Shown in pieces: positions 13,901-64,000 of a stretch of 64,000 nucleotides of DNA. Source of the stretch: Rhizophagus irregularis (lineage: Eukaryota); the NCBI RefSeq assembly GCF_026210795.1, contig NC_089430.1, positions 4,836,001 through 4,900,000 of the forward strand, given 5' to 3'. Within the stretch, counting starts at the first letter, position 1. Each line of letters opens with the position of its first letter. Both the position numbers and the translations under genes were made by a program. A model generated the notes under the pieces. It worked only from the letters and a program-made list of their open reading frames with translations, searched no databases and had not been told where the DNA came from.

Positions 13901-14383
13901 AGGTATACTGATCTACAAATACAAATATATTAGTAAAAATTAAAAACAATAAAATTATATTGTATAATATATTTATTATACCTTATTTATGAATCCTGAT
14001 ATAAAATTATTTGAAGTACTTAAACTTTTCAGAACAATAAATGCATTATGACCTCCTCTTTCCCAATTTTTATTTTTATCATCCCAATAACATATATTTC
14101 CATCAATCCAATTTGCTCTATACATTTCACCAAGTTCATCTTTTGCAATATACTTAATATCATATAATCTATCATAAGGTATCCATTCCAATGCTTCTTC
14201 TATATTATCATGAGCTAATAACTGAGTATTTTGAATAAATTTATCAATATTATCATTACTACTAGTCCAATTTTTGAAATTTCGCTGAAAATGTATTGCG
14301 TAACATGTATTATTACATTTTTTACATCTCTCGACATGTGATAACGTAGTTATCTTCTTAATACTTTTAATAAAAGAATCCAT
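7953..14383 (-). CDS. Protein kinase (TKL-like) with 11 tandem N-lobe modules; 13 exons, ~1,860 aa if all exons are included
   Basis: Exons 14383-13982, 13912-13505, 13435-13013, 12945-12526, 12450-12001, 11931-11503, 11437-11009, 10937-10521, 10453-10040, 9968-9549, 9476-9048, 8961-8082, 8005-7953. All introns GT-AG; the first 11 are phase 0 and 65-86 nt; the frame stays open. Motifs KGGFGKVY, VALK, HQDLHIGN, DMG, APE, DIYSFG. The terminal exon is less certain. Confidence 0.85.
9048..14383 (-). repeat. Tandem array of 11 exon+intron units (~490 bp), each encoding CxxC..C..F + WTSGNxDIDKFIQ + LEWIPYD + kinase beta1-alphaC
   Basis: Eleven similar ORFs in the track (9042-14383) with ~490-bp period. 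Confidence 0.95.
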
Positions 14384-41356: not shown

Positions 41357-42072
41357 TCTAGATGTAGTAACAAACGTCTAAAAATAAGCCAAGAAAATTA
41401 GATTCTCTATTCTTTATTATTGTTGTTAACCATTTTTTTCTTTCTTGCACTATTAAATAATTTCATTGCCAAAAAACCAAATTTATTTTTTTTTTTTAAA
41501 ATCCAAAATTAAATTTCCCATGATTACTAGGAAACTTAAGCTTCTATATTAGTAAATTTATTTAAATCGTCAAATTTGAACATTAATCACTAAAAATTTC
41601 TATAAAAGGAATTTTCTATAAAATACTTGGATAAGACTTGCATAAGCAAAATTAATGAATTAATTTCACTTTTTGGCAACTGTAAAAATTTTAATATGAA
41701 TGTAGAGTTACAGCCCATTACCTGTTCAACTTGGGGTTATGGAATAGAAATTTTGCCAAAGTTAACATGTTAACTCTGGTCAGAACTTTAATGCCGCCCA
41801 AATTAAAGTTATATGGATTTTTGCTTGGCCACATATGGCTAACTTGATGGTCGACTTTCTGATCATCAAGTGAGCCATATATGAAATTTTTATTAAATCT
41901 GGCCAAAATTATAATATTCAGCCAGAATTAAGTGGTGTGTTGACGGTCACTACTGATAACCTTTGATAATCTTTTTAAACAATGTCAGTTTTTTTAAATT
42001 TTATAGATATCTTGATCTGTATATTTATCGAGAAAAAGAATTTGATATTTATCCTGAGTATAAACGGGTAAT

Positions 42073-43258
42073 TAAAGCTCTGAACGGTTCCGGTTTGAAC
42101 CGGAAACTGATCCGGAACCGGCAAAAAATTCGGTTCAGTTCTCGGTTCGGTTTTGGACTTGGAACCGTCCGGTTCAGTTCGGTTCTATCCGAAATTAAGA
42201 AAAAATGCGAAAAAATGAATAACGACTATCCAGTGATCGTACAAGGACGAGCCATAGCTCGTTGGAATCCTCTCATCGAGACGCGTCGAATGGTGGTAAA
42301 ATCAAGTCTATAGCATCGATAGATCACGAGATAGCACATGGTGAGTGTTTCTTAAAAAATTTGCATTAGAAAACTATCCAATGATGCTAGAGACATGAAT
42401 TTACCACCATTCGACGCATCTCGACGAGACGAATCTAATGAGCTATAATTCGTCTTTTTACAATTACTGGATAGTCTTGTATTCGTTTTTTCGCATTTTT
42501 TTTAAATTTTCGAACGTCAAAAATTAAAATTCGATACAAGCGATTAAACGCCATCTATTGATCACATAAAGACGAATTTTAGCTCATTGGATTCGTCTCA
42601 CTGAGACGAGTCGAATGGTGGTAAAATCAAGTCACTAGCATCGATAGATCGTTTTCTAATGCGAATTGTTTAAGAAACACTCACCATGGGCTATCTCACG
42701 ATCTATCGATGCTAGAGACTTGATTTTACCACCATTCGACTCGTCTCAGTGAGACGAATCCAATGAGCTAAAATTCGTCTTTATGTGATCAATAGATGGC
42801 GTTTAATCGCTTGTATCGGAATTTTAATTTTTGACGTTCGAAAATTTAAAAAAAAATGCGAAAAAACGAATACACGACTATCCAGTGATTGTAAAAAGAC
42901 GAATTATAGCTCATTAGATTCGTCTCGTCGAGATGCGTCGAATGGTGGTAAATTCATGTCTCTAGCATCAATGGATCGTTTTCTAATGCAAATTTTTTAA
43001 GAAACACTCACCATGTTCTATCTCGTGATCTATCGATGCTAGAGACTTGAATTTACCACCATTCGACGCGTCTCGATGAGAGGATTCCAACGAGCTATGG
43101 CTCGTCCTTGTACGATCACTGGATTGTCATATATTCGTTTTTTCGCATTTTTTCTTAATTTCGGATAGAACTGAACCGAACTGGACGGTTCCATTTCGGT
43201 TTTCGGTTCTACCCAAACCGCAAAAAAACCGAACCGAACCAACCCGTTTGGAGCTTTA
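42073..43258. mobile_element. Non-autonomous hAT element containing a ~1-kb palindrome
   Basis: 8-bp TSD cgggtaat (42065-42072, 43259-43266); TIR taaagctctgaacgg / ccgtttggagcttta; cggtt/aaccg subterminal repeats; inverted arms ~42161-42651 and ~42699-43192. Confidence 0.9.
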
Positions 43259-43470
43259 CGGGTAATACCCAATATGGAGTTGGGTAGTCGGGTAATACTT
43301 TTTTTGATTTGGGTATGACCCAGATCCAGACACCCCAGCCAAATGATCAACATAGTTTCTAAGCTAAGTGGGCGTGCACTACATCATAGCTTATAAACTG
43401 CCCATGGGCCAGATTAGCCCACGAGATCTGATTGGTCCAAACAACTTACCAACATTTAATTACAAATAAG

Positions 43471-45191
43471 TAAGGATGGTGCCGCAAATATGTAATTGCG
43501 GAATAATTGCGATTTACGGTATTGCGGAACATTGCAGATTTTTAAATCTAAAAATCCGCAAATCTGCAAATCCGCAATTATCCGCAATCCCACAAATATT
43601 CCGCAAAAAAAACTTTCTTTTTTTTAATAAAATATAATTACTACTAAAAAAAAAAAATATTTCTATTTATTATTAATAATAAAAGAAATTATTTTACATA
43701 AAAAAAAATTAAAAAAAACGCTGGAACCTATAGTTCTGGCGTTTTAATTAAAAAAAATTTAAAAGAAACCGCCGGAACCTATAGTTCCAGCGTTTTTACA
43801 TAAAAAAAAATTAAAAGAAACCGCCAGAACTTATAGTTCCAGCGTTTTAATTAAAAAAAATTTAAAGAAAACGCCAGAACCTATAGTTCTGGCGTTTTTA
43901 TTAAAAAAAATTTAAAGAAAACGCTGGAACTCATAGTTCCGGCGTTTTTACATAATAAAATTAAAAGAAAACGCCGGAACCTTAGTTCCGGCGTTTTTAT
44001 TAAAAAAATTAAAAAGAAAACGCCAGAACCTTAGTTCCGGCGTTTTTATTAAAAAAAAAATTAAAAGAAAACGCCGGAACCTTAGTTCTGGCGTTTTTAT
44101 TAAAAAAAAATTAAAAGAAAATGCCGGAACCTTAGTTCTGGCATTTTTATTAAAAAAAAACTAAAAGAAAACGCCGGAACCTTAGTTCCGGCGTTTTTAT
44201 ATAAAAAATCAAAAGAAAACGCTGGAACCTATAGTTCCGGCATTTTTACATAAAAAAATTCAAAAGAAAACGCCAGAACCTATAGTTCCGGCGTTTTTAC
44301 ATAAAAAAATTCAAAAGAAAATGCCGGAACCTATAGTTCCGGCGTTTTTACATAAAAAAATTTAAAGAAAACGCCGGAACCTATAGTTCGGCGTTTTTAC
44401 ATAAAAAAATTCAAAGAAAATGCCAGAACCTATAGTTCCGGCGTTTTTACATAAAAAAATTAAAGAAAACGCCAGAACCCATAGTTCTGGCGTTTTTATA
44501 TAAATAAATTAAAAGAAAACGCCGGAACCTTAGTTCCGGCGTTTTTACATAAAAAAATCAAAAGAAAACGCCGGAACCTATAGTTCCGGCGTTTTTATAT
44601 AAAATAATTAAAGAAAACGCCGGAACCTTAGTTCCGGCATTTTTATTAAAAAAAAATTTAAAGAAAACGCCGGAACCTTAGTTCCAGCGTTTTTACATAA
44701 AAAAATCAAAAGAAAACGCCAGAACCTATAGTTCCAACGTTTTTACATAAAAAAAATCAAAAGAAAACGCCGGAACCTATAGTTCCGGCGTTTTTTACAT
44801 AAAAAAATTCAAAAGAAAACGCCGGAACCTATAGTTCCGGCGTTTTTACATAAAAAAAATCAAAAGAAAACGCCGGAACCCATAGTTCCGGCGTTTTATA
44901 TAAATAAATTAAAAGAAAATGCCAGAACCTATAGTTCCGGCATTTTTATATAAAATAATTAAAAGAAAACGCCGGAACCCATAGTTCTGGCGTTTTTATT
45001 AAAAAAAATTAAAAAATATGCCGGAAGCAATAGTTCCAGCATTTTTGTATAAAAAACCTATTAGTTCTGGTGTTTTTTGTATGTAAGAAAATACCAAAAC
45101 TGAATTGCGGAATTACGGGCTACTAACCGCAATTCAACTTCAAAATCCGCAATATTGCGGAATTTGAAAATCATTTGCGGACCCATCCTTA
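43471..45191. mobile_element. Non-autonomous hAT element with an internal minisatellite
   Basis: 8-bp TSD caaataag (43463-43470, 45192-45199); 19-bp TIR taaggatggtgccgcaaat / atttgcggacccatcctta (2 mismatches); ttgcgg/ccgcaa subterminal repeats. Confidence 0.9.
43714..45045. repeat. ~27 copies of a ~50-bp palindromic unit: aaaacgccggaac-cta(ta)-gttccggcgtttt plus an A-rich linker
   Basis: Units counted by eye; linkers are nearly identical, so this is a minisatellite rather than CRISPR. Confidence 0.95.
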
Positions 45192-46241
45192 CAAATAAGG
45201 CAATTTTATAACTTTTGACCGGATATTTACTTATAATATAAACTCATGGTCAAGGATTGCATTAATGTACATTTTGTACCACCTTGTAACTATAAAAAAG
45301 GCAAAAATTTTTCAAGGTTACACATTAATTTGGCCAGAATTAAGATAATTTCGCCCAGCAAAATTTGGCCGGAATTATAAAACGGACATAAATGTCCGTT
45401 TGCAAATTTGGCCAGAATTATAAAAACGGACATAAATTTGGCCAGCATTATGAATGTAAATATTTTAACTAATTATTCAATAATCATAAATAAATAAATT
45501 ATATTTTATTGGCTTTGTCTCATCAAAATATGCTAAATAGTGGTAATTTCATATTTCTATTATCAATAAATAAAAGTTATTAGCATTTATAAATATTTAA
45601 AAATATAAAAAATTATTTCAAAAAAATGTTAATATGATTTTATTATTTATTTATTAATCCTAAAGGTATAAAACTGCTACCATTTAAAATATCTCAAAAA
45701 AACAATCCAACAAGCTATATATATTTTATCTTTCTATTTGTAATTACTTGATTTCAAGCTAAAGCAGTTTAGCTTTTAGCAATTTAATGTAAATATTTAA
45801 TCAGATAACACTAGTCGAAATAAGGCAAATTGGAAATAAGGCAAATCGTCCTTATTTTGGCTAAATTTCGGCTAATAATTAACGATCGTCTGTATATCAG
45901 GTGACATTCGGCATAGCCGATTTCCGATTTCACTAGTCGAAAAAGGCCGGCCTATATTCAATTAAAAATTCGACCATGATCTACGATTAGACATTGGTCG
46001 AATAGTCTAATTAAACGTCATGCATTACGCGTATCAAAGTTTAAAAAAGGATCTTTTTTAAACTTTCCCCTTTCATCCCTTCCTTTCACGCACTTCACTT
46101 CATCCTTACTTTCCCTGTCCTTTCGTCCTTCCCCTCCCTTCCCCTATTGTCCTTTCCTTTCCCTTTCGTCCTTTCCTTGCTTCCCCTTTCTCTCTCCCCC
46201 TTTTCTCACACCTTTCTTCCGCCTTTTTTTCTTGGAAGTAA

Positions 46242-49200
46242 TGTAAGTTTCGTTTCAAAACTTACATATTTTTTTTTAATTTTTTTTTTTAATTTAAGAA
46301 ACGAATTTCTTTTCATTGTTTTTTTTTGTAGGACGCCAGCTTTAACACGAAACTAGACTTTAAGGTAAAAAACGGGAAAGTGAAGTTTTGTTAATTTAAG
46401 AAACAAACTAACGTTTCTTTTCATTATTTTTTTTTTGTAGGACGCATAGGAGGACGCCGGCTTTAACACGAAACTGGACTTTAAGGTAAAAAATAGGGAA
46501 AAGGGAAAGGAGAAGGGGATTTAGAACCAAGATTCTTAAGAATCTTGGTTTTTATTTTTTTTAATATTTCGGAACGGTTACTAACCGTTCCTTTCTTTTT
46601 TATAGGTTTCGGGCAGGCTTCCTGGTTTTGAAGAATGGAAAAGAACCAAAATTCATAAGTAAACGAATCTTGGTTTAATTTTTTTTGTTTTTTTTTTGTA
46701 ATATTAACGAACGGTTACTAATAACCATTTTTTCTTTATTATTTTAGGATCGGGTTGGCTTCCGAATTCCGAAGAACAGAAAGAACTAAGTTTCGTAAGT
46801 ACGAGTATGAAACTTGGTTTATTTTTTATTTTTTTTTTTTCCTATTATATGAATGGTTACTAACCATTCCTTTCTTTTTCTTATAGGTTCGGCTCGCCTG
46901 CCATGAGTTTTCCGAAGAACGGAAAAAAACTAAGATTCTGTACTACAAATCTTAGTTTTTTTTTTCTTTTTTAATATTTGGAACGGTTATTACTAACCGT
47001 TCTTTTTCTTTTATTTTTTATAGGTTCGGTGTCTCAGGAGAGGCTTCCGAGTTCTGAAGAACGAAAAAAAAACCAAGATTCGTAAGTATATACGAATCAT
47101 GGTTTTAATTTTGTTTTTTTTTTAATTTTATTAATGAACAGTTACTAATAACCGTTCTTTCTTTTTTTAGGTTCACGAGTTCTGAAGAATAGAAAAGAAC
47201 TAAGATTCGTAAGTATATACGAATCTTGGTTTTAATTTTTTTGTTTTGTTTAATTTTATTAATGAACGGTTACTAATAACCGTTCTTTTCTTTTTTTAGA
47301 TTCGGATGGGCTTCCGATCTTTGGAAAAAGTGGAACCAAGATTTATAAGTAAGTACAAATCTTGGTTTAATTTTTTTTTATTATTATTATTACGAACGGT
47401 TACTAATAACCGTTCTTTTCTTTTTTTTTAGGATTGGGTGGATTTCCGAATTCCAAACAACGGAAAATTAAGATTCATAAGTAACTACTAATTACGAATC
47501 TTGATTTTTTTTCTTTTTTTTAATATTATTAATGAACGGTTACTAATAACCGTTCTTTTTTTTTTCTTTTCTTTTTTTTTAGAATCGGGTGGATTTCTGA
47601 ATTCCGAAGAACAGAAAATCAAGATTCGTAAGTAACTACTAATTACGAATCTTGATTTTTTTTTCTTTTTTTTTTAATATTATTAATGAACGGTTACTAA
47701 TAACCGTTCTTTTCTTTTTTTTTTAGGATCGGGTGGATTTCCGAATTCCAAAGAATGGAAAATCAAGATTCGTAAGTAACTACTAATTACGAATCTTGAT
47801 TTTTTTTTCTTTTTTTTTAATATTATTAATGAACGGTTACTAATAACCGTTCTTTTCTTTTTAGGATCGGGTGGATTTCCGAATTCTGAAGAACGGAAAA
47901 TCAAGATTCGTAAGTAACTACTAATTACGAATCTTGATTTTTTTTTCTTTTTTTTTTAATATTATGAATGAACGGTTACTAATAACCATTCTTTTCTTTT
48001 TTTTTAGGATCGGGTGGATTTTTGAATTCCGAAGTACAGAAAAGAACCAAGATTTGTAAGTATATACGAATCTTGGTTTTGTTTTTGTTTTTTTTTATTA
48101 TTTGGAACGGTTTACTAACCGTTCCTTTCTTTTATTTTTTAGGTTTCGGGTTGACTTCTGAAGATCAAAAGAAAAGGAACCAAGATTCGTAAGTAAGTAC
48201 GAATCTTGGTTTATTTTTTATTTTTATTTTTTATTATTTTGGAGCGGGTACTAACTGTTCCTTTCTTTTATTTTATAGGTTCGGGTGGGCTTCCAAGTTC
48301 CGGAGAATGGAAAAAGATCAAGATTTGTAGTAGAGCTCCGAATGGGTCAGGTCAGGTCAGGTTAATTGATAAACCTGACCTGAAATTTTTTTTCAGGTCA
48401 GATCAGGTCAGGTTATATCAGGTTGTCTGTTTGACCTGACCTGACCTGAAACCTGAAAAATTTCAGGACTATTTTTATTAAGTATTGAAAAAAAACGGTA
48501 CAAAACGTTTTTTTTTTAATATAACATTATGAAAAAAATGTTTTCGCAACGTTTTTTTCTCGAAATATTGCGATTCAACATTTTTATATTAAAATCATAT
48601 AAAAAAGTGAATCCCAATACTGCAATTCACGTTTTTTATATAGAATTAATATAAAAAAAGTGAGTTGCGGTATTGCGATTCACTTTTTTATATAGATTCT
48701 ATATAAAAAAAGAGAGTTGCGGTATTGCGATTCACTTTTTTATATTGATTTCATATAATAAAAGTGAGTTGCGGTATTGCGATTCACTTTTTTATATAGA
48801 TTCTATATAAAAAAGTGAATCGCAATATCGCAACTCTCTTTTATTATATGAAATCAATATAAAAAAGTGAATCGCAATACCGCAACTCACTTTTTTTATA
48901 TAGAATCTATATAAAAAAGTGAATCGCAATACTGCAACTCACTTTTATTATAAAGTAGAATCAATAGGTTCAGGTCAACAGGTCAATCAGGTCAGGTCAA
49001 TCTTCATACCTGACCTGAATTTTTTTTAAAAATCTCATACCTGACCTGAATTTCAGGTCAGGTCAGGTCAGGTTACCTGAATTTGGCTGACCTGTTCAGA
49101 GCTCTAATTTGTAGGTATATACGAATCTTGGTTAAATTTTTTTTATTAATATTAATGAATGGTTACTAATAACCGTTCTTTTCTTTTTTTATAGGTTTGG

Positions 49201-49317
49201 GTGGATTTCCGACGAATGGATGAACCAAAACCAAGATTCGTAAGTACGAATCATGGTTTATTTTATTATTATTATTTTATTATAATTTTGAATTAGCAAT
49301 ATTTATTTGTAATTTAG
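46242..49317 (+). repeat. Array of ~14 micro-exon/intron units (~130-150 bp) with splice signals in hairpins, preceded by two units of a second type
   Basis: Example: AG|exon 47727-47771 (45 nt)|GTAAGT 47772 ... gaacggtta-CTAA-taaccgttc 47831-47852 ... pyrimidine tract, AG 47863-47864. Confidence 0.85.
48331..49106. mobile_element. hAT MITE (776 bp) nested in the CACTA element
   Basis: 8-bp TSD atttgtag (48323-48330, 49107-49114); TIR tagagctccgaatgggtcag / ctgacctgttcagagctcta; gtcag/ctgac subterminal repeats; internal inverted ~58-bp units. Confidence 0.92.
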
Positions 49318-52300
49318 ATAGATGCTAATAATAATAATATAATTATAAAGTTTTTAAGCATTTAATTAATAAATACATTTAATAAATTTGATAATAAAAA
49401 TTGAAATAAATTCAGAAAAAAATAGTCCGATTTTTGTCCGATTTAAGTTCTGAAGTACATCTGATCACAGGTCAAAAAGTGAAAAATCAGGCACCAATTG
49501 GTGACTGATTGATGCCTGATTTTTCACTTTTCGACCTGTGGATTGACTGTCCAAATTTAGTATGATTTAGTTCTGATTTATGTCCGATTTAAGTTCCGAA
49601 GTACATCTGATTGGCAGTCAATCGAATAACAATCGGAATATATTTTTTTTGTAAAAATCAGACATATTTCAGCTGTAATTCGACCTAAAATAAGATATCT
49701 GATTTTTAGCCGATTTGCCTTATTTCGACTAGTGTAATAGACATTTGTTTTTTTTTTAAATCAGAATACTAGATATTATTGTTTTATTATTTATTTAATA
49801 TATAAAAGTTATATGAACATTGTGTTTTATAAATATTATACAAAAATTTTGTAAAGAAAATTTACAAAAATTTATAATTGATATAATTAATTAATAATTT
49901 AATTTATTATTCTAATTGTTATAAAATAATACATCACATGCTATTTATGAAAGTTTACTTTAATATAATATATATATATTACATTAAGAATATATAAATA
50001 ATTATTTAATTATCCAATTTATTATATACTATTTTTGTAGATAATGTTATATAAATATACTATTTATTTACTATTCGGCATTTAAAAAATGGTTTATTGA
50101 GAAAATATTGACTTTTTGGTTTTTTTATTTTTAAAATTGCCAAAAAATTGGATCTTTCAACTATTAGTATATTAAATATATGTGGAAGTTACATATATAA
50201 ATATACCTAGTATTTAGTAGTAAATTAAATATATGTGAAAGTTACATAAACATATTGGTATTTAATATTTAAAATTATTTTATTAATTAAAATATTTTTT
50301 TTATTATTAGATGCAAATTATTTTAAAAATTGTCAAAAAATTAGATTCTTTAATTATTAGTACATTACATATGCAATTTAGCAATTGAAAAATTATTTTA
50401 TTAATAGGCCATTGATTTTATTTTAGTTTTATTCTTTTTTTTAATTAGATATAATTTATTTTAGAAAATTAAATGATTTGATTCTTTTAATTATTAGTAT
50501 ATTATTATATCTATAGAAGTTGAATAAACATATCTATTTAATGGAATTTAATATTTAAATTATTTTATTAATATAAAACTTAATTTTTGTTTTGTTTTTA
50601 TTTACAGTATTTATTATTTATTTATTTTTTATTAGATACAAATTATTTTAAATATTGTTAGAAATTGGATCAACAAAATCTATCTAATTAAAAAATTTTT
50701 GTCATATTTAGATTACCCTGTATAAATAATTTGAATTGTGTAACATTGAAAGTGTGCGTTCGATCTATTTCGTAATTATCATATCATAATTATATCATAA
50801 TTTAAACTAATACATTTACAGTTAATTAAAATTTTAACTGTATTTTTTTTTTATTCTGGTGAATTAATTACTAACAAAAAAAAGTATAATTTCTCTTATA
50901 CATTTATTTGTTGGTCATTTCCGCTCTCTTAGTTACCATGAACCATTTCTTTAATAATAATTTTTTTCAGTTTTTACCAAAAAACTGAAACTACCTTTTT
51001 AGTCTTTTTTTATTATCATTATTGTTTCTTTTGGTTAACTTAACCAAAATTTTTTTATTCTTATTGGATTTTTTTTCAGGGGATTTTTTTTTAATCAGAA
51101 TTTATCAAAATTTTGGATTTTTTTTTTAACCCAAAAAATAGGCTATTCTTTTTTTTTGGTTTGGGTTAAGACTATAGAACTATATCCTATGGCTTTTTGT
51201 GGGATTTTTTTTAGTTAATGATATTGTTTCTAACTAATAAATTCATTTTTTTTTAGTGAGAATTTTTTTGATTATATAGATATTTTGTAATTAAATCAAT
51301 AAATTTTTTGATAAATCTATATAACTAAAAAACTATATAACTTAAAAAATTTGTCTGACGTTTGGATTAGTCTCTGCATAATAATTTGAATTGTGTAACT
51401 TGAAATCCATGCCATATAATTAAAACCCGTGACATACCTCCGTCTGATCTATTTATCCGTGTACATTCCAATCAACTAATATAATTTCATTTTACCTTCA
51501 AACTGAAAAAAATTTTTTCTTCCTTTCTTCTTTCGGTTTAGTTTTTTTTTCAAACCGAAAATTTGATTTTTCTCATTCTTTTCCCATTTAGGTTTAATTT
51601 TTTTCCCAAACTGAAAATTATTTTTTTTTTCGAATTATTGCAAAATTTTTTTCGATACTTATTTTTTTCAGATTCCTTTTTTTTCAGAAATTTCCCTTTT
51701 TTTTGAACCAATTTCTTTCTTTATCCTTTTTCTTTCCCCCAAATTTATTTTTAATTTTTTTTTTCTTTTAATTTTTTTTTAAAAAATCACGCTGGATAAA
51801 TAGTTTGATTTTCAAATTCATAAAAATCAAAAAAAAAATTGATATTTTTACAATATTTTATAATTAATTAATTGAAGAAATTGTTGATTTAATAATAGAC
51901 TATTATAACCAAATCCATATCCAAAATTCTCTAAATAATCACCAGATTTTTGATTAAAAATTTTAATTCAAATGGTTTAGTTAAATTAATAATTTATCGA
52001 ATAAAATGAGTATCAAAATAATAATAAATGAAATGAACAGATTTCTAATACATTTAAATGTTCAAATATTTTTCCTAAGTTGGTTATAAGTTTAAGATTG
52101 ACGTAATAAAAATAAGAAATAATTAATTAATATACATATTAATATTTGTAGTATTTTCATAATATTTAAGTTTTTTCAATAAAAATTAATTTTTTAGAAG
52201 TATTCTTGATAATTATTTTTTCACAATTCCTAATTAATCCGAATTTCACTCTACGCTCAAACATCAAATCATTAATACATTATTCTAAAAAAAATGTATA

Positions 52301-52900
52301 AGAAATAGCAACACGAAAATAAAAATAATTTATTATTTATATCATTCTAATATTATAAATAGAGCTCCGAATGGGTCAGGTTAGGTCAGGTTTAAGGTTG
52401 CTTGCCGAAACCTGTTTGGCCTAATGCCGAAAGGTGAAACCTCTTATATAGTGCCGAAACGCCGAAACGCCAAAACGCCGAAACCTGTCAAAATTGCGAA
52501 ACTGCCGAAACATGCCGAAACCTCTATAATAGGTTTCTCTGTAGTTTCGGCATAGTTGATCATAAGATTTGCATATAGTTACGCCAAGTTACACCAATTA
52601 ATAATATAATTTAGATGATCAAATAATCTACAAATAAAAGATTAAACTTCAATATTTTACTGTCGTCTTAGTTCTTTTAAGCTTTATCTAGTGTTAGAAT
52701 TTTCATTTCTAACTCCCATATTAATATTATGATATTACACGTTTTTACAGTTTTTTTTTAAGGGGCTTATATTCATTAAAGGAAAATGCGTAACATGCAT
52801 TTAATAAACCCAATTCCGTCATCTCCTTTAACACTGAACTAAAGTTTCTTTTACTTTCTTCCATTTTCTTAATAATAATATTAATAATAAACTGTTTCAA

Positions 52901-55201
52901 ATGACTGATCACATAGAAGATTCACCCATTAAAATGAAAAATAGAGGAGGTCGGCCACCTAATAGCATTTGGGAAGATATTAATAAAGGAGAAGCTGTTG
53001 GTTCTGGCAAATTTGCCGCCTCCTGCAAGTACTGTAAGAATACATGGTCACGCGGTGAAGTTTCAAAGCTCGAAGAGCATCTTTCAAACCATTGTCCAGA
53101 TGCGCCAGCAGCAGTTGTTAGAAGGTATATGACTAAAGTAATAGAACGGCAAGATAAGTCCAAGTCATCCAAAAAAGAAAAATACTCTGAAGGTCAAAGT
53201 AACATGGATGATTACCATGATTCAACAGAGCTTAACGAACAAAGATGTACACGAATTAATCGTGCATTAGTTAAATTTTTTATTGCGTGCGGAATTGCGT
53301 TTAGAGTAGTGGAACATCCCTTTTTCATCAATTTTATAAAAGAGCTTAATGCCGGGTACAATACACCAACAAGGGAAGTATTAGTAAATCAACTACTTGA
53401 ACGTGAATTAGCTCAAGTGAACTTCAAAGTTAATTCTGAGCTTGAAAAGGAAACGAATTTAACGTTAGGTTTGTTAAATTAAATAGGCTATCATACGTCA
53501 TTTTTATTTAATCTTACTTACTATATAATATTAATTTATAATTTAGCCTTTGATGGTTGGACGTCTGGTACACATCGTTCAATTTGGAACTTCATTGTAA
53601 TGACTCCGTCGCGTAAAGAATATCTTTATCAACTTTCTGATTTGTCTGAAAATTCGCACACTGCAGAATATCTAGTTACAGTAATTGAAAAGGTTATAGA
53701 AGGTATTGGAGAAGATCGAATATGTGCTGTAGTTTCCGATAATGCGGCCAATGTTCGTAATGCACGAAAAATTATACATGAGAATCATCCAAAGATTGAG
53801 AATGTGCGATGCGTTGCACATTCTATCAATTTAATTGCATGCGACATCGTCAAGGAGAAGTTTGGGGAACGTTTATTAAAACGTGTTAATATTTTGACAA
53901 CCTTTTTTAGAAGTTCTCATCAGGCTAATGCAAAACTTGCTCAAATAATTAAAGAAAAAGGAATTAGTGGAGGAGGATTAAAATTATATTGCAAGACACG
54001 CTGGACTACTGCTAGTGAATCCGTAAATTCAGTAATAAATTTGGAATCAGCACTAGAAGAAATGGCCAGCGATCACGATAAAGTGCTAACAAATGATAAA
54101 ATAAAACCGATTATTCAATCGAGAAATTTTTTTTCAAATTTACGAGTTCTTGGGTTTGTTCTGGATCCTCTAAGAAAAGCGGTACTTTCATTAGAATCGA
54201 GAAGAGCTACACTTGCAGATTGTTTCCTGAGCTTGGCAAGACTTGCAGCTACATTAAAAAAGTTACCCAAATCATTAAATCCTGCATTCCGAAGTCATTG
54301 TATCAAAGTAATAAATGAAAGATTTGATGAATTCGATGATGATAAGTATATTACTTGTTTTTTTATGGATCCCAGATTTAGAAACGCGCCACTTAAAAAA
54401 TGCGCCCTCATGAGAATTATCAAATGTGCAGCTTCAATCGGGAAAAATTTAGGTTTCGACCGTTACGAAGCTGAAACTTTATGTGATCAAATACAGAAAT
54501 ATATTAATGAGCAAGAGCCATTTGACCTAGATATCGGTTTTGCTAAAGATAATCCTGTGAATTGGTGGAAATATATTAATACCGAACCAGAACCAGATGT
54601 CCTGCCAAGAATTGCAAGTTATCTATTTGCAATATGTCCTAACTCAGCAACTTGCGAACGTGGATTTTCGACTTTAGGATGGCTATTTCATAAACGTCGC
54701 TTAAATCTTAATGTGGATAAACTAGAATCCATGTGCAAATTAATTTTGTATTGGAAATCCAATTCAAAAACTGAACTTGGATTTTATGGAATTGATCAAA
54801 AAAAGAATACTCGTCTTAGTGATGATGAGATCAATATACGTATTGCAGAAGCTTTTGCAGAAGATGACGATGAGGAATATAATGAGGAGCAAGCTTCTAC
54901 TCAGAGATTAACTACAAGCGGCGAAACAATACCCGAAGACAATTGCCGTGTAGTAATCGAAAGTCTATGGATTGATCAATTTGTTAATTTATCGCATGAT
55001 TCAATTACTAGTGAAATCGGCGATATTCCAAGAGATATATTGGATGATTCAGATGAAAATAATGCGGAAGATGATGAAGTTGATGATAGTGGTAATAACA
55101 AGAGACCCGGAGAAGGTGACTATGATTATGATATAGATGATGTATTAGGTATGGATGACGGTGATAATAATGACGATAATTATGATGATAATGAGGAATA
55201 A
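52901..55201 (+). CDS. hAT transposase, intact, 740 aa, 2 exons (52901-53468, 53547-55201)
   Basis: BED zinc finger (W...CKYC...LEEHLSNHC); catalytic motifs LAFDGWT (formed across the intron), VSDNAAN, CVAH, TRW, ATCERGFS; acidic tail. Confidence 0.92.
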
Positions 55202-55377
55202 TAATAATGAGAAATAATTACAATAGTTAATCCAATGAGAATTAATTCTAATATCATGTGATTTAAATAATGATACTATTTAGGAAATAAATGATGTAAT
55301 TATGCAGGGCAAAATATTCACGATCAAAGTCCAGTTAACATATAATTATGCAGGCAATGCAGGCAATTGTAATTTTA

Positions 55378-55532
55378 TATTATATTTTAAAACATTGCAA
55401 TTTAATTAAGGAATAAGGATAAGCATATTATATTTTAAAAATAGTGCAATTTAATTAAGGAATAAGGATAAGCATATTATATTTTAAAAATAGTGCAATT
55501 TAATTAAGGAATAAGGATAAGCATATTATATT
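55378..55532. repeat. Three tandem copies of a ~49-bp AT-rich unit between the transposase and the cargo gene
   Basis: atattatattttaaaaatagtgcaatttaattaaggaataaggataagc repeated three times. Confidence 0.8.
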
Positions 55533-55870
55533 AGAATCAATAAGTTTTAAGGACTTCGTTAATTAAATTTATTACATTAGATCAATAAATTTTAAGAACT
55601 GCGTTACAAAAAAAAATTTAGAACTGCGTTAATTAAATTTATTACATTAGAATCAAAACTGTGTTTATTTTGTTACAAATACTTTAATTATGTAGAATGT
55701 TATTATGTTCATCAGTTCATGTTTTAAACATTATAACGAATTTTAAAATTATTATAAATATTATGAAATTTGAATTTTTTTTTCGCAATTCAAAACCAAA
55801 TTGTATTTTAATTTTCAAATTGTATTTAATTTTCAAATTTCAAGTTACGAAAAAATCATAAAAATAAAAA

Positions 55871-56545
55871 ATGGCAGCATTAGTACCTTTTGTCCCACCG
55901 CCACCACCAGTATTCCAATGGACGATTAACGCAGCTAGGCAATTAATCGCGAAGCGGAGAAACTTACATCAGCAATTTGAAAGAATTGCAAACCGTCATC
56001 ATGTAAATGCATGGACAATAATAGCAAATAGGGTGTTCGTTGCAACGGGATTTGCAGCGACACCCAGGCAATGCCAAACAAAATGGAATGCCCTCAAACG
56101 AGGTTATGAAAACCTCAGTAGGATAATAAATAATAATGATGACGACATTCCTATTATAAGCCCAAATAGTTTCGATAGAGCGTGTTTTGCTGATATGAAC
56201 GATGAATTCTGGTTACAAACCGGTAATTATTATTAATTATTATTTTAAATTAATTTTATTTAGGCAATTCATTCAATTCATTAATATTTTTATTGGATTT
56301 TAGATCTGTTTAGACGAGAGTATCGACGGCAGCATGCTGCGCATGATCGACATCGATATGAATATAGATTGCGAAGGGAAAGAAGAAGGTCGCGATCTAG
56401 GTCTCGATCAAGAAGTAGATCAAAAAGTAGAGATAGAAGACGAGATAGAAGTAGAGATAGAAGACGAGATAGAAGTAGAGATAGAAGACGGGACAGAAGT
56501 AGAGATAGAAGAAGAGGTAGAAGCAGGTCCCCACATAGAAGATAA
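55871..56545 (+). CDS. Myb/SANT (trihelix)-like domain fused to an RS/RD-repeat tail, 197 aa, 2 exons (55871-56222, 56304-56545)
   Basis: WT...LIAKR...WTIIANRV...TPRQCQTKWNALKRGY. An 81-nt GT-AG intron leads in frame into RRSRSRSRSRSRSKSRDRRRDRSRDRRRDRSRDRRRDRSRDRRRGRSRSPHRR*. Confidence 0.8.
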
Positions 56546-57819
56546 AGATATTATTAAATTTTAATTTTTATTATATTTTTAATCGTGTATTTTATTAGTT
56601 TAATATTAAATATTATAAAATAAATATTTACATACAAAAAATCATATTGTCTTTAATCTTTATTCTTATAAATTGTTTAAATGCCGAAACTCTAATTAAA
56701 TCATATAGAAAGTATTGCCGAAACGCCGAAACAGTTTTGGCAAGTTACGGCAGTTTCACGATTTTGATAGGTTTCGCAGTTTCGGCATTTCTTGATGATT
56801 TCGTGAAACTAGTTTCGGCAGTTTCGCGTACGCCATTCTGCCGAAACCCTCTAGTTTCGGCAAGCAACCTTAGTCAGGTTAATTGATAAATCTGACCTGA
56901 AATTTTTTTTCAGGTCAGGTCAGGTCAGGTTATATCAGGTTGTCTGTTTGACCTGACCTGACCTGAAACCTGAAAAATTTCAGGACTATTTTTATTAAAG
57001 TATTGAAAAAAAATGGTACAAAACTTTTTTTTTTAATATAATATTATGAAAAAAAACGTTTTTGCAACGTTTTTTATTAAAATATTGAAAAAAAATATTG
57101 CAAAACGTTTTTTTTAATATAACATTATGAAAAAATGTTTTCGCAACATTATTATTGAAATATCAAAAAAAAACGTTACGAAACATTTTTTAATATAATA
57201 TTATAAAAAAACGTTTTCGCAACATTTTTTCTCGAAATATTGCGATTCAACATTTTTATATTAAAATCATATAAAAAGTGAATCCCAATACTGCAATTCA
57301 CTTTTTTTATATAGAATTAATATAAAAAAAGTGAGTTGCGGTATTGCAATTCACTTTTTTTATATAGAATTAATATAAAAAGTGAATCGCAATATCGCAA
57401 CTCACTTTTATTATATAAAATCAATATAAAAAAGTAAATCGCAATACTGCAACTCACTTTTTTTATATAGAATCAATATAAAAAAGTAAATCGCAATACT
57501 GCAACTCACTTTTATTATATAAAATCAATATAAAAAAGTGAATCGCAATACTGCAACTCACTTTTATTATATAGTAGAATCAATAGTTTCAGGTCAACAG
57601 GTCAATCAGGTCAGGTCAATCTTCATACCTAGTGTTTGGATCCAGATAGAAACCGTCATCCGGATAAAATAAAAAAATTATCCGGTTTTTATCCAGGTTA
57701 TCCGTTTCGGATAAAAATCCGGATATATCTGGATAAAAACCGAAATCCGGATAAATTTATATTAAAATTTTTTTTGTAGATCGGTTTTAACAGATAATTT
57801 TGTGGAACCTAATAAATAA

Positions 57820-58205
57820 ATTTCGTGGTACTTATTTGTGGCTTTTAATTAAATTCGTGGCAATTATTTAATTAATCATAAAAACAATAGCATTTATTAG
57901 TTAAAATCGTGGCATTTATTTAATTAAAATCATGGCATTATTTGATTAAATTGATGGCTTTAATTTGTGGCTTTATTTAAATTAAATTCGTGGCATTTAT
58001 ATGATTAAGTTCATAGCATTTATTTGTTTAAATTCGTGGCATTTATTTGATTAATTATGGCTTTAAATTTGTGCAAGGCTTTATTTAAATTAAATTCATA
58101 GCATTTATGTGATTAAATTCGTGGCATTTATATGATTAAATTCATGGCATTTATATGATTAAATTCGTGGCATTTATGTGATTAAATTTGTGGCATTTAT
58201 TTGAT
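57820..58205. repeat. Degenerate ~22-bp tandem repeat upstream of the hAT-B transposase
   Basis: attaaattcgtggcatttatatg-like unit repeated about 15 times. Confidence 0.75.
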
Positions 58206-59728
58206 TGAAATTTATGCACATTTGTGCCAATTAAAATTTGCAAAATTTTATTAATTAAATTTTGATTTATGAATTATTTATTTTTTATCAAAATTAATCT
58301 AGCTCTAAGCCTTAATTGAAATAAATAAATAGTGCATTTATTTTCCATCTTTCTGGATTTTTTTTTATAATTTCATTTATTGAATAAATAAAATAATTCA
58401 TAAAATTATGGAAAATCAAAATTATATTGTCTTAAGCGAAAATGAAGGTTCTAGTGATGAAATTGCAGAAATTACTCCAATACCATCAAGAAGAGGACGC
58501 CCTGCAAAATCATCTAAAACATTTGGAAAACAAAAAATGGCAAGTACTAGTGAAAAATCAGATCAAGAATCATTAACTGCATTTGAATCAACAAGTCAAA
58601 TATCAAATGATTCAAATCCCTTTAAGCAAACTACTTCAAAAATCAAGCCACAAACAAAAGTAAGTTGGGTATGGGATTATTTTGTTAAAAAGCAAAATGA
58701 AAGTGGAGAAGTACGTGCATATTGTCAGTTTATATTAGAAAATGGGGAAAAATGTTCAAAACACTATAAATATGATGGATCTACAGGAAATCTTAGTTAC
58801 CATGCTATTAAACATGGAATTACACCACCTACAGAAAGTATTACATCTGAAAATAAATCAATGCCAACTCAATCTACTATGTCCAATATTAATGGACAAA
58901 AAGAAAAAGAATTATCTACATTACGATGGATTCTTTTAACAACCCAACCACTTTCTACTGTAACTAATAAGGCCTATATTGAGCATATGCATATTATTGA
59001 TCCAATATTCACAGTTCCTGGAGCAAAAAAAATAAGAATGATGATTGCTCGTAGTTATGGGTATAATAGAGATAAATTAAAGCTACTTTTAAAAACTGCT
59101 CAATCAATATCTTTAACTACTGATTTATGGTCTTCTCGTTCAAAACATGGATATTTGGGTTTAACAGCAACTTGGATCAATAAAGATTTTGAAATAATGG
59201 ATGTTTTGCTTGAAATTTCTTATTTTCCAACCCCACATACTGCACAAGCAATTACTGAAGTAATCAAAAAAGCTATTCAAAAATGGGAAATTGAAAGCCA
59301 GGTTATATCAATAATAGCAGATAATGGAGCTAATATAGTAGCTGCCATTCGAGATTTAGAACCAATTAAAAGACTCTCTTGTGCTGCCCATACCTTACAA
59401 TTGGCAATTAATAAAGGTTTAAAGGTTGTAGAAGATTTGGTATCACGTGTAAAACAATTAATCAATTTTTTTTCCACTCAAAAACAAATTGAAAGACTGA
59501 TTAACGTTCAAAAAGACATTGGTTATAAAGAAACATACCATTTAATACAAGATATATCTACTAGGTAAATTTTTTACATTTAATTAATTACTATTCAATT
59601 AAATTTTAATATTTTATTATTATAATTTTAATTAAAATTTGATGTAATTTTATTTGATTATTTAAGGTGGAACTCTTCTTATTTAGCATGGGATAGGCTT
59701 ATTTTTCTTCAATATGCAGTACTTCAAC

Positions 59729-62424
59729 TAGGGTATGGAAGAGTTCAGGTCCAGGACTTTAGGACTGAGTCTTTGAACTCAGTCTTGGTAAGACCTAGTC
59801 CTAATTTTGGGACTTAATTTGGACGGTCCCAAATCGGTTTTTATAATAAACAATATAAATAAATTTAGAGATTAATTTCGCAGATCTTTACTGCAATTTA
59901 ATAAGTCATGTGAAATATGTAAATCATGACACGTCTCTTACCGTCAAAATTTTCGCGTTTTGCATTTTACTTTACTTCACTCTTCCCATTGTTTTTTCCT
60001 TCCCATTAAATTTTTCAGTAAAAATGTCTTATTCGAATTATGATTTTGAAGATTTTAACAATTTTGATGAATTTGAACCTTTTGAACAAGATGCACCTCC
60101 TATAGAAGATGAAGAAAATGATGATAATGATGACAGTGAAGAAGAAACCTCACCTCAATCTCGCCGAACTTCACCAACATGGAAGTATTTTAACGAACAA
60201 ACAACTCAACATCCAGGATATCCAGTTTGTTGCAAATGTCAATGTGTTTTTGGAAAAAAAACTGGAATTTCAACTTTAAAACGACACTTAGAATCTATAC
60301 ATAAAATAAAGATAGGAAATGTCAAAAATACAGGAAAGAATCAAAGTATTTTGAATTTTAGGCAAACTGATCCTTGGCCTGAAAAAGAAAAAAATGAACG
60401 AGATATTGCAGTAGTAGAGTGGGTAATTGGAGATGCACAACCCTTCCGTTCTGTTGAAAATTTGCGATTTAAAATTATGATCAATAAATTTGATTCTCGA
60501 TATCAAATTCCAGATGAAAAAACAGTAAAAACTTTGGTAGTTGATTATTTTAAAGAAAAACGTAAAAATATACAAGAAGATCTAAATGCAATTCCGGGCA
60601 AATTATCTTTAACAGCCGATATGTGGACTTCAACATGTAATAATGATGCATTTCTTGGCCTGACAATTCATTATGTTGACAATAATTGGAACCTAAAAAA
60701 CTTTTTATTAGATATTATTTCTTTTACTACCCGTCATACTGGAAATAATATAGCAAATGCAATAAAATCAGTTTTAACAGAATTTAATCTACTTGAAAAA
60801 ACTTTGGCTTTAACTACTGATAATGAATCGGCGATGGTAGTTTGTGGAAGAATAATTGCAGAAGAACTTACAAAAGAACTTAATGATCAGTCTTTTCGAC
60901 ATTATAGGTGCTCTGCACATATTTTAAATTTGGCCGCGCAGCAAGGAATTAAAATTATTGATGATGAGGTTGTTAAAATTCGTGAGTTAATGAAAAAAAT
61001 TAAACACTCAACTCTAAGGTGTGATAGATTACGAGAATTGTGTTCAATAGAAAATTTAACATATTACAAACCACAATTAGATGTTGAGACCAGGTGGAAT
61101 AGCACCTATTACATGATTGTAAAATTCCAAAAAATGTTGCGACCTATTGAAATGTTAGCTGCAACAGATCAAGACATTAAAAAATTCGTACCGGACGCGC
61201 AAGGATGGATAAAAATAAATGTAAGTGTTAGCTATTCTTCATTAATAACGATATTAACATTAATTAATAACATAACTAATCCAAAAAATAAACTACATTA
61301 TGACTAATTTACAATATAAATAGGATACACTTACGTTACTGGAACCATTAGAAAAAGCAACAGTATTGCTTTCAGCTTCCTCCTATCCCACCATTTCTGA
61401 TGTAAGGTTTTTGTTTCTTGGAATCCAACAACATCTAAACGATTATATTGGAAAAGAAGAATTTAGTCAAAGTGAAGTAGCATCATCAATACTTCAAAAA
61501 ATTGATCAGTATTGGGAAGTAGTGGATTCATCTACCTTAGCGTCTACGGTACTAGATCCACGCACAAAACTTACTTTGTTTTCTGCTGGAGAAGAATCAA
61601 CAAATGCAATTAATGCAGTAAAAAGGCGTTTTTCTGAATATCATACACCAATGTCTCAACCAGCTGTAATTAATCATGATAATGGTGAAATAGCAAGCAC
61701 TCGTGATTACTTTCATCAATTAAAGAGGAGGCGATTAAATAATAGTACCGCATTAAATATTACAAGACCATCAACTGGAATTTATGAGGAGATTGACCGG
61801 TATCTTGCTTTGCCATGTGATGATAATGTTGCGCCATTGCTATGGTGGCAGGTTCATTTTCGAGAGTTTCCAGCATTAGGTGCAATGGCACGAGACTATT
61901 TATCCATTCAGGCTACTAGTGTTGCGTGTGAGCAAGCATTTTCTGTGGCGAGTAATACTATAACTCGCACAAGAAATAGATTGCAACCAGATACGTCTCG
62001 TGCATTATTGTGTTCAAAAAGTTGGCTTGAAAAAGGAATAGGAAAGAAAAGAAATTAAGAGTAATGGGTAACGTTTAATTGTTTATAGTAATATAATCAC
62101 TGTATATACTTTTATTAATCAAGTTCAGAAAAATTTTTTTCAACTTACAAAATAAAAAATGTGGCTTTGGTGGGAATTATTACAACGCCATTACTTAAAT
62201 GGTTAGCATTTTGATTATCGACGAATTAATAAATTTTTTTTGTAGCTCGTAATAAATAAATTATTTAAGTATTTTTTGTTTAAAATTAACCAATCAATTC
62301 AATCGGGACTAAGTCCTAACTTAAGTCCTAGTTTCGGTCCTTAAACTGGGTCCGGTCTGTCCATGTGCCAGGACCTGTAAGTCTTGGGACTTTAACCGGA
62401 CTGTAACGGACTTTCCATTCCCTA
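59729..62424 (+). mobile_element. hAT-C: compact, apparently autonomous hAT (2696 bp)
   Basis: TSD acttcaac (59721-59728, 62425-62432); TIR tagggtatggaa / ttccattcccta (11/12); ggact/agtcc subterminal repeats. Confidence 0.93.
60024..62058 (+). CDS. hAT transposase, intact, ~643 aa, 2 exons (60024-61220, 61324-62058)
   Basis: BED finger (TWKYF...CCKC...LKRHLESIH), LTADMWT, TTDNES, CSAH, TRWNSTY, ATSVACEQAFS; phase-0 GT-AG intron 61221-61323. Confidence 0.92.
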
Positions 62425-64000
62425 ACTTCAACTAAATATAAATTTGTCATGTTCTCTCAAACCTGAAGAAAAAGCTGATGGTAATAGATTAAAAAAACTT
62501 GTGTTAAAGGATAATGAATGGGAATTATTGGATGAATTATGTAATATATTAGCACCATTTGAAAAAGCTACACGAGATTTTTCTGGAAGTACCTATATAA
62601 CATTAAGTCAAATGTTCCCCATCATTACAAATCTTACAAATTCCTTAAAACCAGTTGATAATTTACATGAGGAATATGAAGAACCTGATGATAATACCAT
62701 TATATCTGATACAGAAGAGAATTTAACTAACCAGTCAACTGGAATAGATTATAATAATATTTCAGAAGTTATAAAAAATGTAAAAAAATATATATATATA
62801 GGCTTTAAAACACTACTGGTCAATGCCAGATGAGTTTGGCATTATGGCAGCACTTTTAGACCCACGATATAAAGATCTTAATTTTATATCTGATGAAAAT
62901 ATAAAAGTAAAAATTCATTCAAGTTTACAGATACAATATGATCAGTTGAAAAGAGAAATGCAACAACAAATTAGTACTCCACCATCACCCACAATTACAC
63001 CAATTTCAACAATTTCAGCTGATACTAGTAGAAGTTCAACTCCCAGTACAAAATCTTTACATGAGTATAGAGAGATGCGTGAAAAATCAATAAGAAAAGT
63101 ATTTCAAACAACAGAAAAATCTACTGCATCATCAACAATAGCTGATGAAATTACTACTTATTTTCTCTTGCCAGTTGTTAGAGAAAATAAAAATCCATTA
63201 AATTGGTGGAAGACTAAAAAAGAAAATTTTCCAATTCTTTCTATTATAGCACAAAAATACTTAGGAATTCCTGCTACTTCTGTAGCTTCTGAGCGACTTT
63301 TTTCTGATGCAGGGAATTACATTACGGCAAAAAGAAGTTTATTGGATCCTAATTTAGTAGGAAAAATGGTATTTTTAAAACGCAACATGCAAACTATGGA
63401 TCATATTAATGTATTTCCACCAGATTTAGAAGTGGAAAATAATGATTTTGTGGAGGATGAGGATGTATTAGAATAATTGATATTAAATTTATTTTTGTTA
63501 GTGTCTTATTTTTATTATGTAAATGTTTTTAAATAAAGTGAATTTTACTTTTATTAAATAAAATGATAAATCTTTTAGTAAGTTATATTTTTTTACTCTT
63601 TTATTGAATAATTCTATTCTAACAGTATAAGATTTATTGTATTATATAAAATAAATTCTAAATCATGATAAAATAATTTTATTAGACAAATAAATCTTTT
63701 TTTATTAATAAATCAATGATACAAATAGAATATTTTACAAATGAAATGAAAATTAAAAGGATAAAATTAAAATCAAAAAAAAATTTTTTTTTATCCGGAT
63801 TCTGGGTCAACCTGGATAATTTTTAACCGGTTTCTTATCCGGGTAAAAACCGCAATTATCTGGATATCCGAAAAAAAAATTATCCGGATATATCTGGTTG
63901 AATCCGGTTACGGATCCAAACACTATTCATACCTGACCTGAATTTTTTTTAAAAATCTCATACCTGACCTGAATTTCAGGTCAGGTCAGGTCAGGTTACC

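What the first reader, a model, noticed from the sequence alone, without database searches (positions are those of the whole stretch)
46242..49317. CACTA element packed with micro-exon/intron units in which the splice donor and the branch point each sit in a hairpin
Seen: about 14 tandem units, each reading (T)nAG | ~40-57-nt exon | GTAAGT ... CTAA(T/C) ... pyrimidine tract ... AG, all on the + strand. The donor lies in an inverted repeat (aaaatcaagattcGTAA-loop-ttacgaatcttgatttt, a 17-bp stem at 47759-47803). The branch motif is the loop of a second hairpin (gaacggtta-CTAA-taaccgttc). Two upstream units of unrelated sequence show the same design (atGTAAGttt...aaacttacat at ~46240; aagaaac-aaaCTAAC-gtttctt at ~46398), so the structure is conserved beyond sequence. 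Several exons are 45 nt and would encode RSGGFPNSEERKIKI repeats, but others break frame. Some donors are GT>AT, consistent with CpG decay. Established: splicing kinetics can route fungal transposon transcripts into RNAi (Cryptococcus SCANR), and introns can protect transcripts from silencing. Inference: this is a transposon-borne, highly spliced non-coding or low-complexity RNA, acting as intron camouflage, a splicing-factor sponge or a structure-regulated splicing array. It could also be a source of new introns.
Basis: partly seen in the sequence, partly recalled or inferred. Interest (0 to 1): 0.85.

Follow-up and report, generated by a model that had tools for sequence, protein, structure and literature searches.

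The report
Transposon packed with hairpin-gated introns
A gene-less jumping gene, likely from a root-symbiotic fungus, carries 17 short intron-shaped segments in a row whose splice signals stayed conserved while the sequence between them drifted; related copies are transcribed, the RNA that could be mapped largely keeps these introns, and hairpins predicted to bury the splice donors likely act as a brake on splicing.

Summary
A 3.9-kb transposase-less CACTA element (45809-49734; 22-bp TIR, TAA duplication) holds 16 internal micro-exons (33-58 nt) and 17 donors, with intron anatomy on the + strand only, far above chance. Unpaired splice letters differ at 1 of 60 sites against 70 of 292 in exon bodies, so selection likely acted on the splice signals. 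Intact donors are predicted to be buried (8.7-13.2 kcal/mol to open); most branch motifs sit exposed in a loop. Poly(A) reads from related copies cover the array about 200-fold more, relative to DNA, than the element's left end, so the family is transcribed. Intron and exon bins are covered alike, the commonest read ends cross unspliced boundaries, and no GT..AG joint was among the 15 of 53 shown. 'Highly spliced' is therefore unsupported, but splicing is not excluded. The exons show no coding signal (pN/pS 0.92). Covariation cannot separate RNA from DNA causes. Best reading (0.4): a slow-splicing leader inherited from an unseen autonomous element, now decaying (6 of 17 introns damaged). No description was found in the literature searches.

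The parts
45809..49734 (.). Non-autonomous CACTA (CMC-EnSpm) element, 3,926 bp (3,142 bp without the nested insertion and its duplication)
   Evidence: 22-bp perfect TIR beginning CACTA, TAA on both flanks; no ORF of 150 aa or more inside
45809..46035 (+). Left TIR and subterminal region, with a second CACTAGTCGAAA at 45931; almost no RNA reads
46036..46242 (+). CT-rich tract and first exon; likely region of transcription start
   Evidence: RNA/DNA ratio rises from 0.04 to 3.3 across it; no sharp start found (table 6)
46243..46331 (+). First intron; GTAAGT donor paired with ACTTAC in a hairpin of unrelated sequence; branch motif deleted in this copy
46332..46605 (+). Two A-type units (exons 46332-46364, 46441-46485; GTAAAA donors; branch hairpin at about 46398-46419); the second intron switches to B type and holds a dead B donor hairpin near 46536
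46606..48326 (+). B-type exons e2-e14 (38-58 nt; majority length 48) with introns of 84-106 nt, each with a donor hairpin, a T tract, a branch hairpin, a pyrimidine tract and TAG; e8-e11 are a recent block of 45-nt copies
47759..47803 (+). Example donor hairpin, 17-bp perfect stem; exon end and GTA paired, AGT at the start of the loop
48331..49106 (.). Nested hAT-like miniature element with an 8-bp duplication, splitting the GTAG/GT donor of unit 14; internal 52-bp palindromic repeats
   Evidence: same left end at 52360 ahead of an hAT transposase
49195..49239 (+). Last B-type exon (45 nt)
49240..49410 (+). Last donor, an ordinary AT-rich intron without a branch hairpin (candidate acceptors 49317, 49321, 49350) and four AATAAA; possible 3' end or deletion junction
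49420..49734 (.). Right subterminal region (33-bp palindrome 49466-49540, short repeats) and right TIR

Best explanation
This is a transposase-less CACTA element whose interior is a tandem array of intron-shaped units separated by non-coding exons of about 48 nt, transcribed in related copies, and likely the amplified 5' leader of an autonomous partner's transcript, in which donor-burying hairpins would slow splicing and so likely throttle transposase output. Shown: the element, the intron anatomy, the excess conservation of unpaired splice letters, family transcription that rises at the CT-rich tract, and abundant intron-containing reads. Predicted: each intact donor (-3..+3) is locked in a 13-19-bp stem with +4..+6 in the loop, while the branch adenosine is mostly displayed in a loop. 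Inferred: U2/SF1 can engage the branch sites while U1 access is limited, so a full-length spliced RNA, which needs 17 slow events, is rare; selection kept the signals while the array served an autonomous element; this deletion derivative has since been decaying by CpG deamination, slippage and a nested insertion. The autonomous partner was not seen.
For: Intron pattern 10 on + vs 0 on - and 0.15 in shuffles. Acceptor TAG plus donor-loop AGT differ at 1 of 60 sites vs 70 of 292 non-CpG exon-body sites, p=1e-5; 4 of 66 with the damaged unit 4 counted, p=6e-4 (e8, e9, e11 dropped as recent copies). Donor loops vary from 2 to 13 nt but start AG in 12 of 12. Donor windows fold at z -5.4 (15 sites) vs +0.2 for 30 pattern-matched sites elsewhere. 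Ten GTAAGT donors cost 8.7-13.2 kcal/mol to open, four host-gene introns 0.4-6.9. Poly(A) runs X21, X22: 104 and 119 reads per million on 1.24 kb; RNA/DNA 0.08 at the left end vs 15-17 on the array; exon bins 17.0, intron bins 14.9. Top loose ends cross unspliced acceptors (101, 132 reads) and donors (97, 125 reads). Family-majority letters restore the stems and the GT where this copy is damaged (table 3). The last intron lacks the branch hairpin, as a deletion junction would. Stems over a 5' splice site or branch point reduce splicing in other systems (PMC2794156, PMC2275289; abstracts).
Against: No autonomous element or transposase remnant was found, so the leader origin is inference only. 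Splicing itself was not seen: none of the 15 joints shown is GT..AG and 38 were not shown. Spliced reads made of 45-nt diverged pieces may map poorly, so retention may be overstated. Only 16-17 reads per run are 99% alike or more, so the RNA comes from other copies. Both mate orientations are about equal on the array (47-71% +), so the strand is unknown. G.U vs A.C is 15 vs 7, p=0.13, and 6 of the G.U cells are one shared state. Neighbouring repeats without splice signals are just as palindromic. The DNA baseline is contig depth, which is no copy number.
Confidence: 0.4

Rival explanations
1. A stand-alone non-coding RNA selected in the non-autonomous family itself: loading many spliceosome parts on the nascent RNA would keep the element open and shielded from silencing, or bind branch-point factors as a sponge.
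For: Many-copy family (1,391 contig pieces laid on 1.24 kb) with intact majority signals and poly(A) expression; own promoter-like tract and AATAAA cluster; 15 displayed ACTAA motifs, with an extra one in four donor loops; Gomafu precedent for branch-motif repeats binding SF1 (PMC3116199, abstract).
Against: A cut-and-paste element needs no RNA of its own to move (established knowledge); 6 of 17 introns are damaged in this copy; in Cryptococcus poorly spliced introns trigger RNAi rather than protect (PMC7763443, passage).
Confidence: 0.25
2. A DNA-level palindromic satellite: one ordinary exon-intron piece gained hairpins by template switching and was amplified; the splice signals are fossils and transcription is incidental.
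For: The 50-bp satellite, the 52-bp hAT repeat and a 1.1-kb foldback next door all form strong hairpins; no significant G.U bias; 2 of 4 compensatory changes are double CpG deaminations and the rest could be DNA-level correction; reads mostly unspliced.
Against: Pairing cannot explain why the unpaired letters (TAG, loop AGT, loop CTAA) stay fixed while exon bodies differ at 24% of sites; no branch loop is inverted in the 13 scored; two unit types and one unrelated donor follow the same plan.
Confidence: 0.2
3. A decayed micro-exon protein gene with 16-residue repeats (phase-1 symmetric exons) captured by or native to the transposon.
For: Majority exon length is 48 nt; 10 of 16 exons are multiples of three, 7 of 13 after collapsing the recent block (p=0.10); one other frame gives pN/pS 0.53, p=0.013 uncorrected.
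Confidence: 0.12

Closest known systems
Non-autonomous CACTA / CMC-EnSpm elements (described as abundant and expressed in Rhizophagus irregularis: PMC8647823, PMC11075540, passages)
   Same: CACTA-initiated TIR, 3-bp duplication, expression, CpG-type decay
   Different: Interior is an intron array with no ORF; the words 'intron' and 'splic' do not occur in either paper's main text
Fungal introner-like elements and Hypoxylaceae sister stwintrons (PMC8469720, passages)
   Same: Repeated, sequence-similar U2 introns with inverted repeats, functional on one strand only
   Different: Those are dispersed single insertions whose two ends pair with each other. Here the units are tandem, the repeat unit is exon plus intron, and the donor stem is half exonic, so splicing would destroy it
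Cryptococcus SCANR substrates (seen through the review PMC7763443, passage; the primary paper was not held)
   Same: Transposon RNA with introns predicted to splice poorly, in a fungus group with Argonaute-loaded transposon small RNAs (PMC8647823)
   Different: Signals here are strong in sequence and attenuated by predicted structure; siRNA production not tested
Structure-attenuated 5' splice site of murine leukemia virus (PMC2794156, abstract)
   Same: A stem-loop restricting U1 access in a mobile element
   Different: One site in a retrovirus, against a 14-fold tandem array in a DNA transposon
Gomafu/MIAT branch-motif repeats (PMC3116199, abstract)
   Same: Many UACUAA(C) motifs in a non-coding RNA
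   Different: There they lie in an exon without donors or acceptors; here each is part of a full intron
Schistosoma micro-exon genes; non-coding snoRNA host genes; repeat-bearing first exon of maize Spm (all recalled, not from a call; one search found no paper on the last)
   Same: Short exons in series; intron-rich non-coding host; repeats in a CACTA leader
   Different: No coding constraint; no Rfam family at gathering score; the Spm repeats are not introns

Membership tests
CACTA / CMC-EnSpm | TIR beginning CACTA | tested here: met
   22-bp perfect TIR
CACTA / CMC-EnSpm | 3-bp target duplication | tested here: met
   TAA on both flanks
CACTA / CMC-EnSpm | Subterminal repeats | tested here: inconclusive
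   Short repeats and a second TIR-like word seen in the sequence; not scored
CACTA / CMC-EnSpm (autonomous) | DDE transposase gene | tested here: not met
   No ORF of 150 aa or more; only short ORFs in the 3' part; hence filed as non-autonomous
CACTA / CMC-EnSpm (autonomous) | Partner with the same TIR elsewhere in the genome | not testable with these tools
   No genome held
U2 spliceosomal introns | GT donor, branch motif, pyrimidine tract, YAG in order on one strand | tested here: met
   11 of 17 undamaged in this copy
U2 spliceosomal introns | Excision from RNA | tested here: inconclusive
   No GT..AG among 15 of 53 joints shown; only the first five introns were laid
Introner / introner-like elements | Dispersed single insertions into host exons | not testable with these tools
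   No second copy of the array in the window; genome not held
Introner / introner-like elements | Inverted repeats pairing the two intron ends | tested here: not met
   Folds give two local hairpins, one half exonic
Micro-exon protein genes | Exon lengths in multiples of three | tested here: inconclusive
   7 of 13 independent exons, p=0.10
Micro-exon protein genes | Open frame under purifying selection | tested here: not met
   pN/pS 0.92, stops in all frames
snoRNA host / mirtron | Known RNA family or end-to-end intron hairpin | tested here: not met
   46 Rfam matches in 47000-49734, all below gathering score; 46242-46999 not scanned
SCANR-type RNAi substrate | siRNAs from spliceosome-stalled transcripts | not testable with these tools
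   No small-RNA run was laid

The most novel reading that the evidence does not exclude
A DNA transposon family has evolved a dedicated non-coding array of structure-gated spliceosomal introns (buried donor, displayed branch point, exons near 48 nt in two different sequence types) that loads splicing machinery on its RNA to control its own expression or silencing: a transposon-borne spliceosome-engaging RNA device not described before.
Probability: 0.25. Interest if true: 0.85.

Novelty: new variant of a known kind. Interest (0 to 1): 0.62.

Why it matters
Splicing is thought to be one way cells tell their own genes from transposons, with opposite outcomes in different organisms. A transposon that has amplified 17 introns without coding anything, kept their signals under apparent selection and wrapped each donor in a stem is a natural, many-copy test of whether introns shield a mobile element or expose it to RNAi. 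Damaged and intact copies can be compared for splicing, small RNAs and methylation within one genome. It also gives a shape to part of the large unclassified repeat fraction of these fungi (24% of the R. irregularis genome, PMC8647823).

Tried and rejected
Whole genome: none held. Run search: no RNA holder listed among indexed runs; raw poly(A) runs with the same species label were laid instead. Only 45700-46940 was laid, so the best-preserved units (e8-e13) and the 3' end have no read data. Collection scans gave no family member: metagenomes 8 loci, viral 2, 0 and 0, prokaryotic genomes 1; the first ten match only over 21-39 nt; L011 is a bacterial record and was not examined further. Protein searches with unspliced ORFs: nothing; the search of protein representatives never ran. 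Rfam: nothing at gathering score. Exon cores as subterminal binding words: 3 of 16 comparisons had p<0.05 by base shuffling (best 0.003), one alignment 15 of 18; treated as a weak lead only. Enrichment of AT donors among unspliced reads (71-75% G in RNA vs 98% in contigs) was rejected, because a non-donor CpG shows the same shift (61-70% vs 89%). Earlier findings by sequence, place and four word sets: nothing on this element. Literature searches that found no description of such an array; most subscription journals and all supplements were not seen, so a repeat-library entry could exist.

Full report
Setting. The window is AT-rich and carries tandem kinases, Sel1 repeats, an F-box gene and hAT transposases. 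The nearest clusters of one kinase are eukaryotic, commonest Mucoromycota. I infer an arbuscular mycorrhizal fungus; the species was not determined and no genome was held.

The element. A 22-bp perfect TIR starting CACTA bounds 45809-49734 with TAA on both sides. There is no ORF of 150 aa or more inside. A 776-bp hAT-like element with an 8-bp duplication sits at 48331-49106 and splits one donor. It shares its left end with 52360, ahead of an hAT transposase.

The array is real. After a CT-rich tract come 17 donor positions and 16 acceptors. All 16 acceptors are TAG, 15 have CTAA(C/T) 21-36 nt upstream, and none of 14 checked has an AG between branch motif and acceptor. A full intron pattern occurs 10 times on + and never on -, against 0.15 in 500 shuffles. 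Fourteen exons are of one type (38-58 nt, majority length 48), two of another (33, 45 nt). Six of 17 introns are damaged in this copy: three GT>AT, one collapsed donor loop, one lost branch motif, one insertion.

The signals look selected. With three recent near-identical units dropped and unit 4 left out, acceptor TAG and donor-loop AGT differ from the majority at 1 of 60 sites, exon bodies at 70 of 292 non-CpG sites (p=1e-5); counting the damaged unit 4 gives 4 of 66 (p=6e-4). These letters are unpaired in the folds, so palindrome maintenance does not explain them. Donor loops run from 2 to 13 nt yet begin AG in 12 of 12. The exon's stem arm is also more conserved than its body (15 of 120 vs 88 of 310 with gaps counted). 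Units are related, so these p-values overstate independence, and sites were partly placed by motif.

The two hairpins differ. Fifteen donor windows fold at mean -16.3 kcal/mol (z -5.4) and 14 branch windows at -9.4 (z -4.6), against -4.0 (z +0.2) and -2.4 (z -0.2) for 30 pattern-matched sites elsewhere, most of which are not verified introns. Freeing -3..+6 costs 8.7-13.2 kcal/mol at the ten GTAAGT donors, 4.2-7.4 at the three AT donors, 1.0-2.5 at the two A-type donors and 0.4-6.9 at four host-gene introns placed by eye. Freeing the branch heptamer costs 2.0 in nine units, 4.5-6.7 in four and 0 in the A type. So donors are predicted to be buried and branch points mostly displayed. Covariation is thin: four distinct Watson-Crick swaps in 296 pair cells, two of them double CpG deaminations; G.U 15 vs A.C 7, p=0.13. 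Neighbouring repeats with no splice signals fold as strongly (50-bp satellite -22.4, hAT unit -18.2; foldback), so hairpins alone are unremarkable in this genome.

No coding signal. Seven of 13 independent exons are multiples of three (p=0.10). Two unspliced ORFs containing the exon peptide found no protein (weak evidence). The 48-nt majority length leaves a coding ancestry open.

RNA. One lay covered 45700-46940 at 85% likeness. Poly(A) runs X21 and X22 gave 1,147 and 1,317 reads of 11.05 million each, X24 gave 113 of 11.5 million, and contigs of X15 gave 1,391 pieces, so this is a many-copy family. Only 16 and 17 reads were 99% alike or more: the RNA is from other copies. Relative to contig depth, RNA is 0.08 on the subterminal region, rises through the CT-rich tract and reaches 15-17 on the array, which argues against DNA contamination or read-through of whole elements. 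Five exon-rich bins give 17.0 and seven intron bins 14.9 (three bins not classed: one cut at a repeat, one mixed, the last partial), so there is no exon enrichment. The largest loose ends read from intron into exon (101, 132 reads) and from exon into donor (97, 125 reads). None of the 15 joints shown has GT..AG ends; 38 were not shown, and the listing appears ranked by contig depth, so junctions with modest support could be hidden. Spliced reads of short diverged exons may also map poorly, human-like reads are dropped, and mate orientations are near equal on the array, so strand is unknown. Conclusion: the family is transcribed and intron-containing RNA is abundant; splicing is neither shown nor excluded. 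Family-majority letters restore the GT at 46655 and the stems at 46405, 46727/46730 and 46787/46808/46812, so this copy is a decayed member.

Mechanism. A cut-and-paste element gains nothing obvious from its own RNA unless that RNA makes transposase. The simplest way to get selection on 17 non-coding introns behind a promoter is that they were the leader of an autonomous element's transcript, inherited by this deletion derivative; the last intron, with a B-type donor but an ordinary 3' half followed by four AATAAA, would be the junction. Stems over a donor or branch point reduce splicing elsewhere (abstracts of PMC2794156, PMC2275289), so serial buried donors would act as a brake. This origin is inferred and no partner was seen (0.4). 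Rivals: a stand-alone spliceosome-loading RNA (0.25), a palindromic satellite with fossil signals (0.2), a decayed repeat-protein gene (0.12).

Comparison. By TIR and duplication it is a non-autonomous CACTA element. It is not an introner-like element by the end-pairing test (PMC8469720, passages), not a micro-exon protein gene by the selection test, and matches no Rfam family at gathering score. It could be a SCANR-type substrate (PMC7763443, passage), which was not testable. Two papers on Rhizophagus transposons list CMC-EnSpm elements as expressed and never mention introns or splicing in their main text (passages); a Cryptococcus preprint on CMC elements showed nothing comparable in the 12 of 17 passages shown. 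Six searches found no description of such an array; supplements and most subscription journals were not seen.

Verdict. Observation confirmed; interpretation partly supported; new variant of a known kind; interest 0.62.

Noticed in passing
window 55871-56545 (+): Two-part gene inside an hAT-bearing region: a 117-aa N-terminal part that looks Myb/SANT-like (recalled, not scanned) and a C-terminal RS/RD-repeat tail like those of SR splicing factors.
   Followed up: partly
window 43692-45056: Satellite of 27 copies of a 50-bp unit, each a 14-bp perfect hairpin, inside a probable miniature element.
   Followed up: partly
window 42060-43260: About 1.1-kb foldback element with nested inverted repeats up to 287 nt at 97%.
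   Followed up: no
window 9044-14327 (-): About 10.7 tandem copies of a 494-bp unit next to a kinase ORF, probably a repeated kinase N-terminal segment.
   Followed up: no
window 52360-64000: Nested hAT elements: three transposase-like regions and relatives of the 48331-49106 insertion at 56873-57630 and 63926-64000.
   Followed up: partly
window 47480-47495 and the same place in the next three units: The donor loop of units 8-11 holds a second branch-like TACTAAT.
   Followed up: no
window 49587-49604 vs 48021-48038: 15 of 18 identity between an exon core and a right subterminal repeat; one of 16 comparisons, weak.
   Followed up: partly
tables 5c and 7, near 46441-46493: Other copies carry more A-type units in tandem, and their A exon appears 3 nt longer than the 45-nt one here, which would make it 48 nt like the B type.
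   Followed up: no
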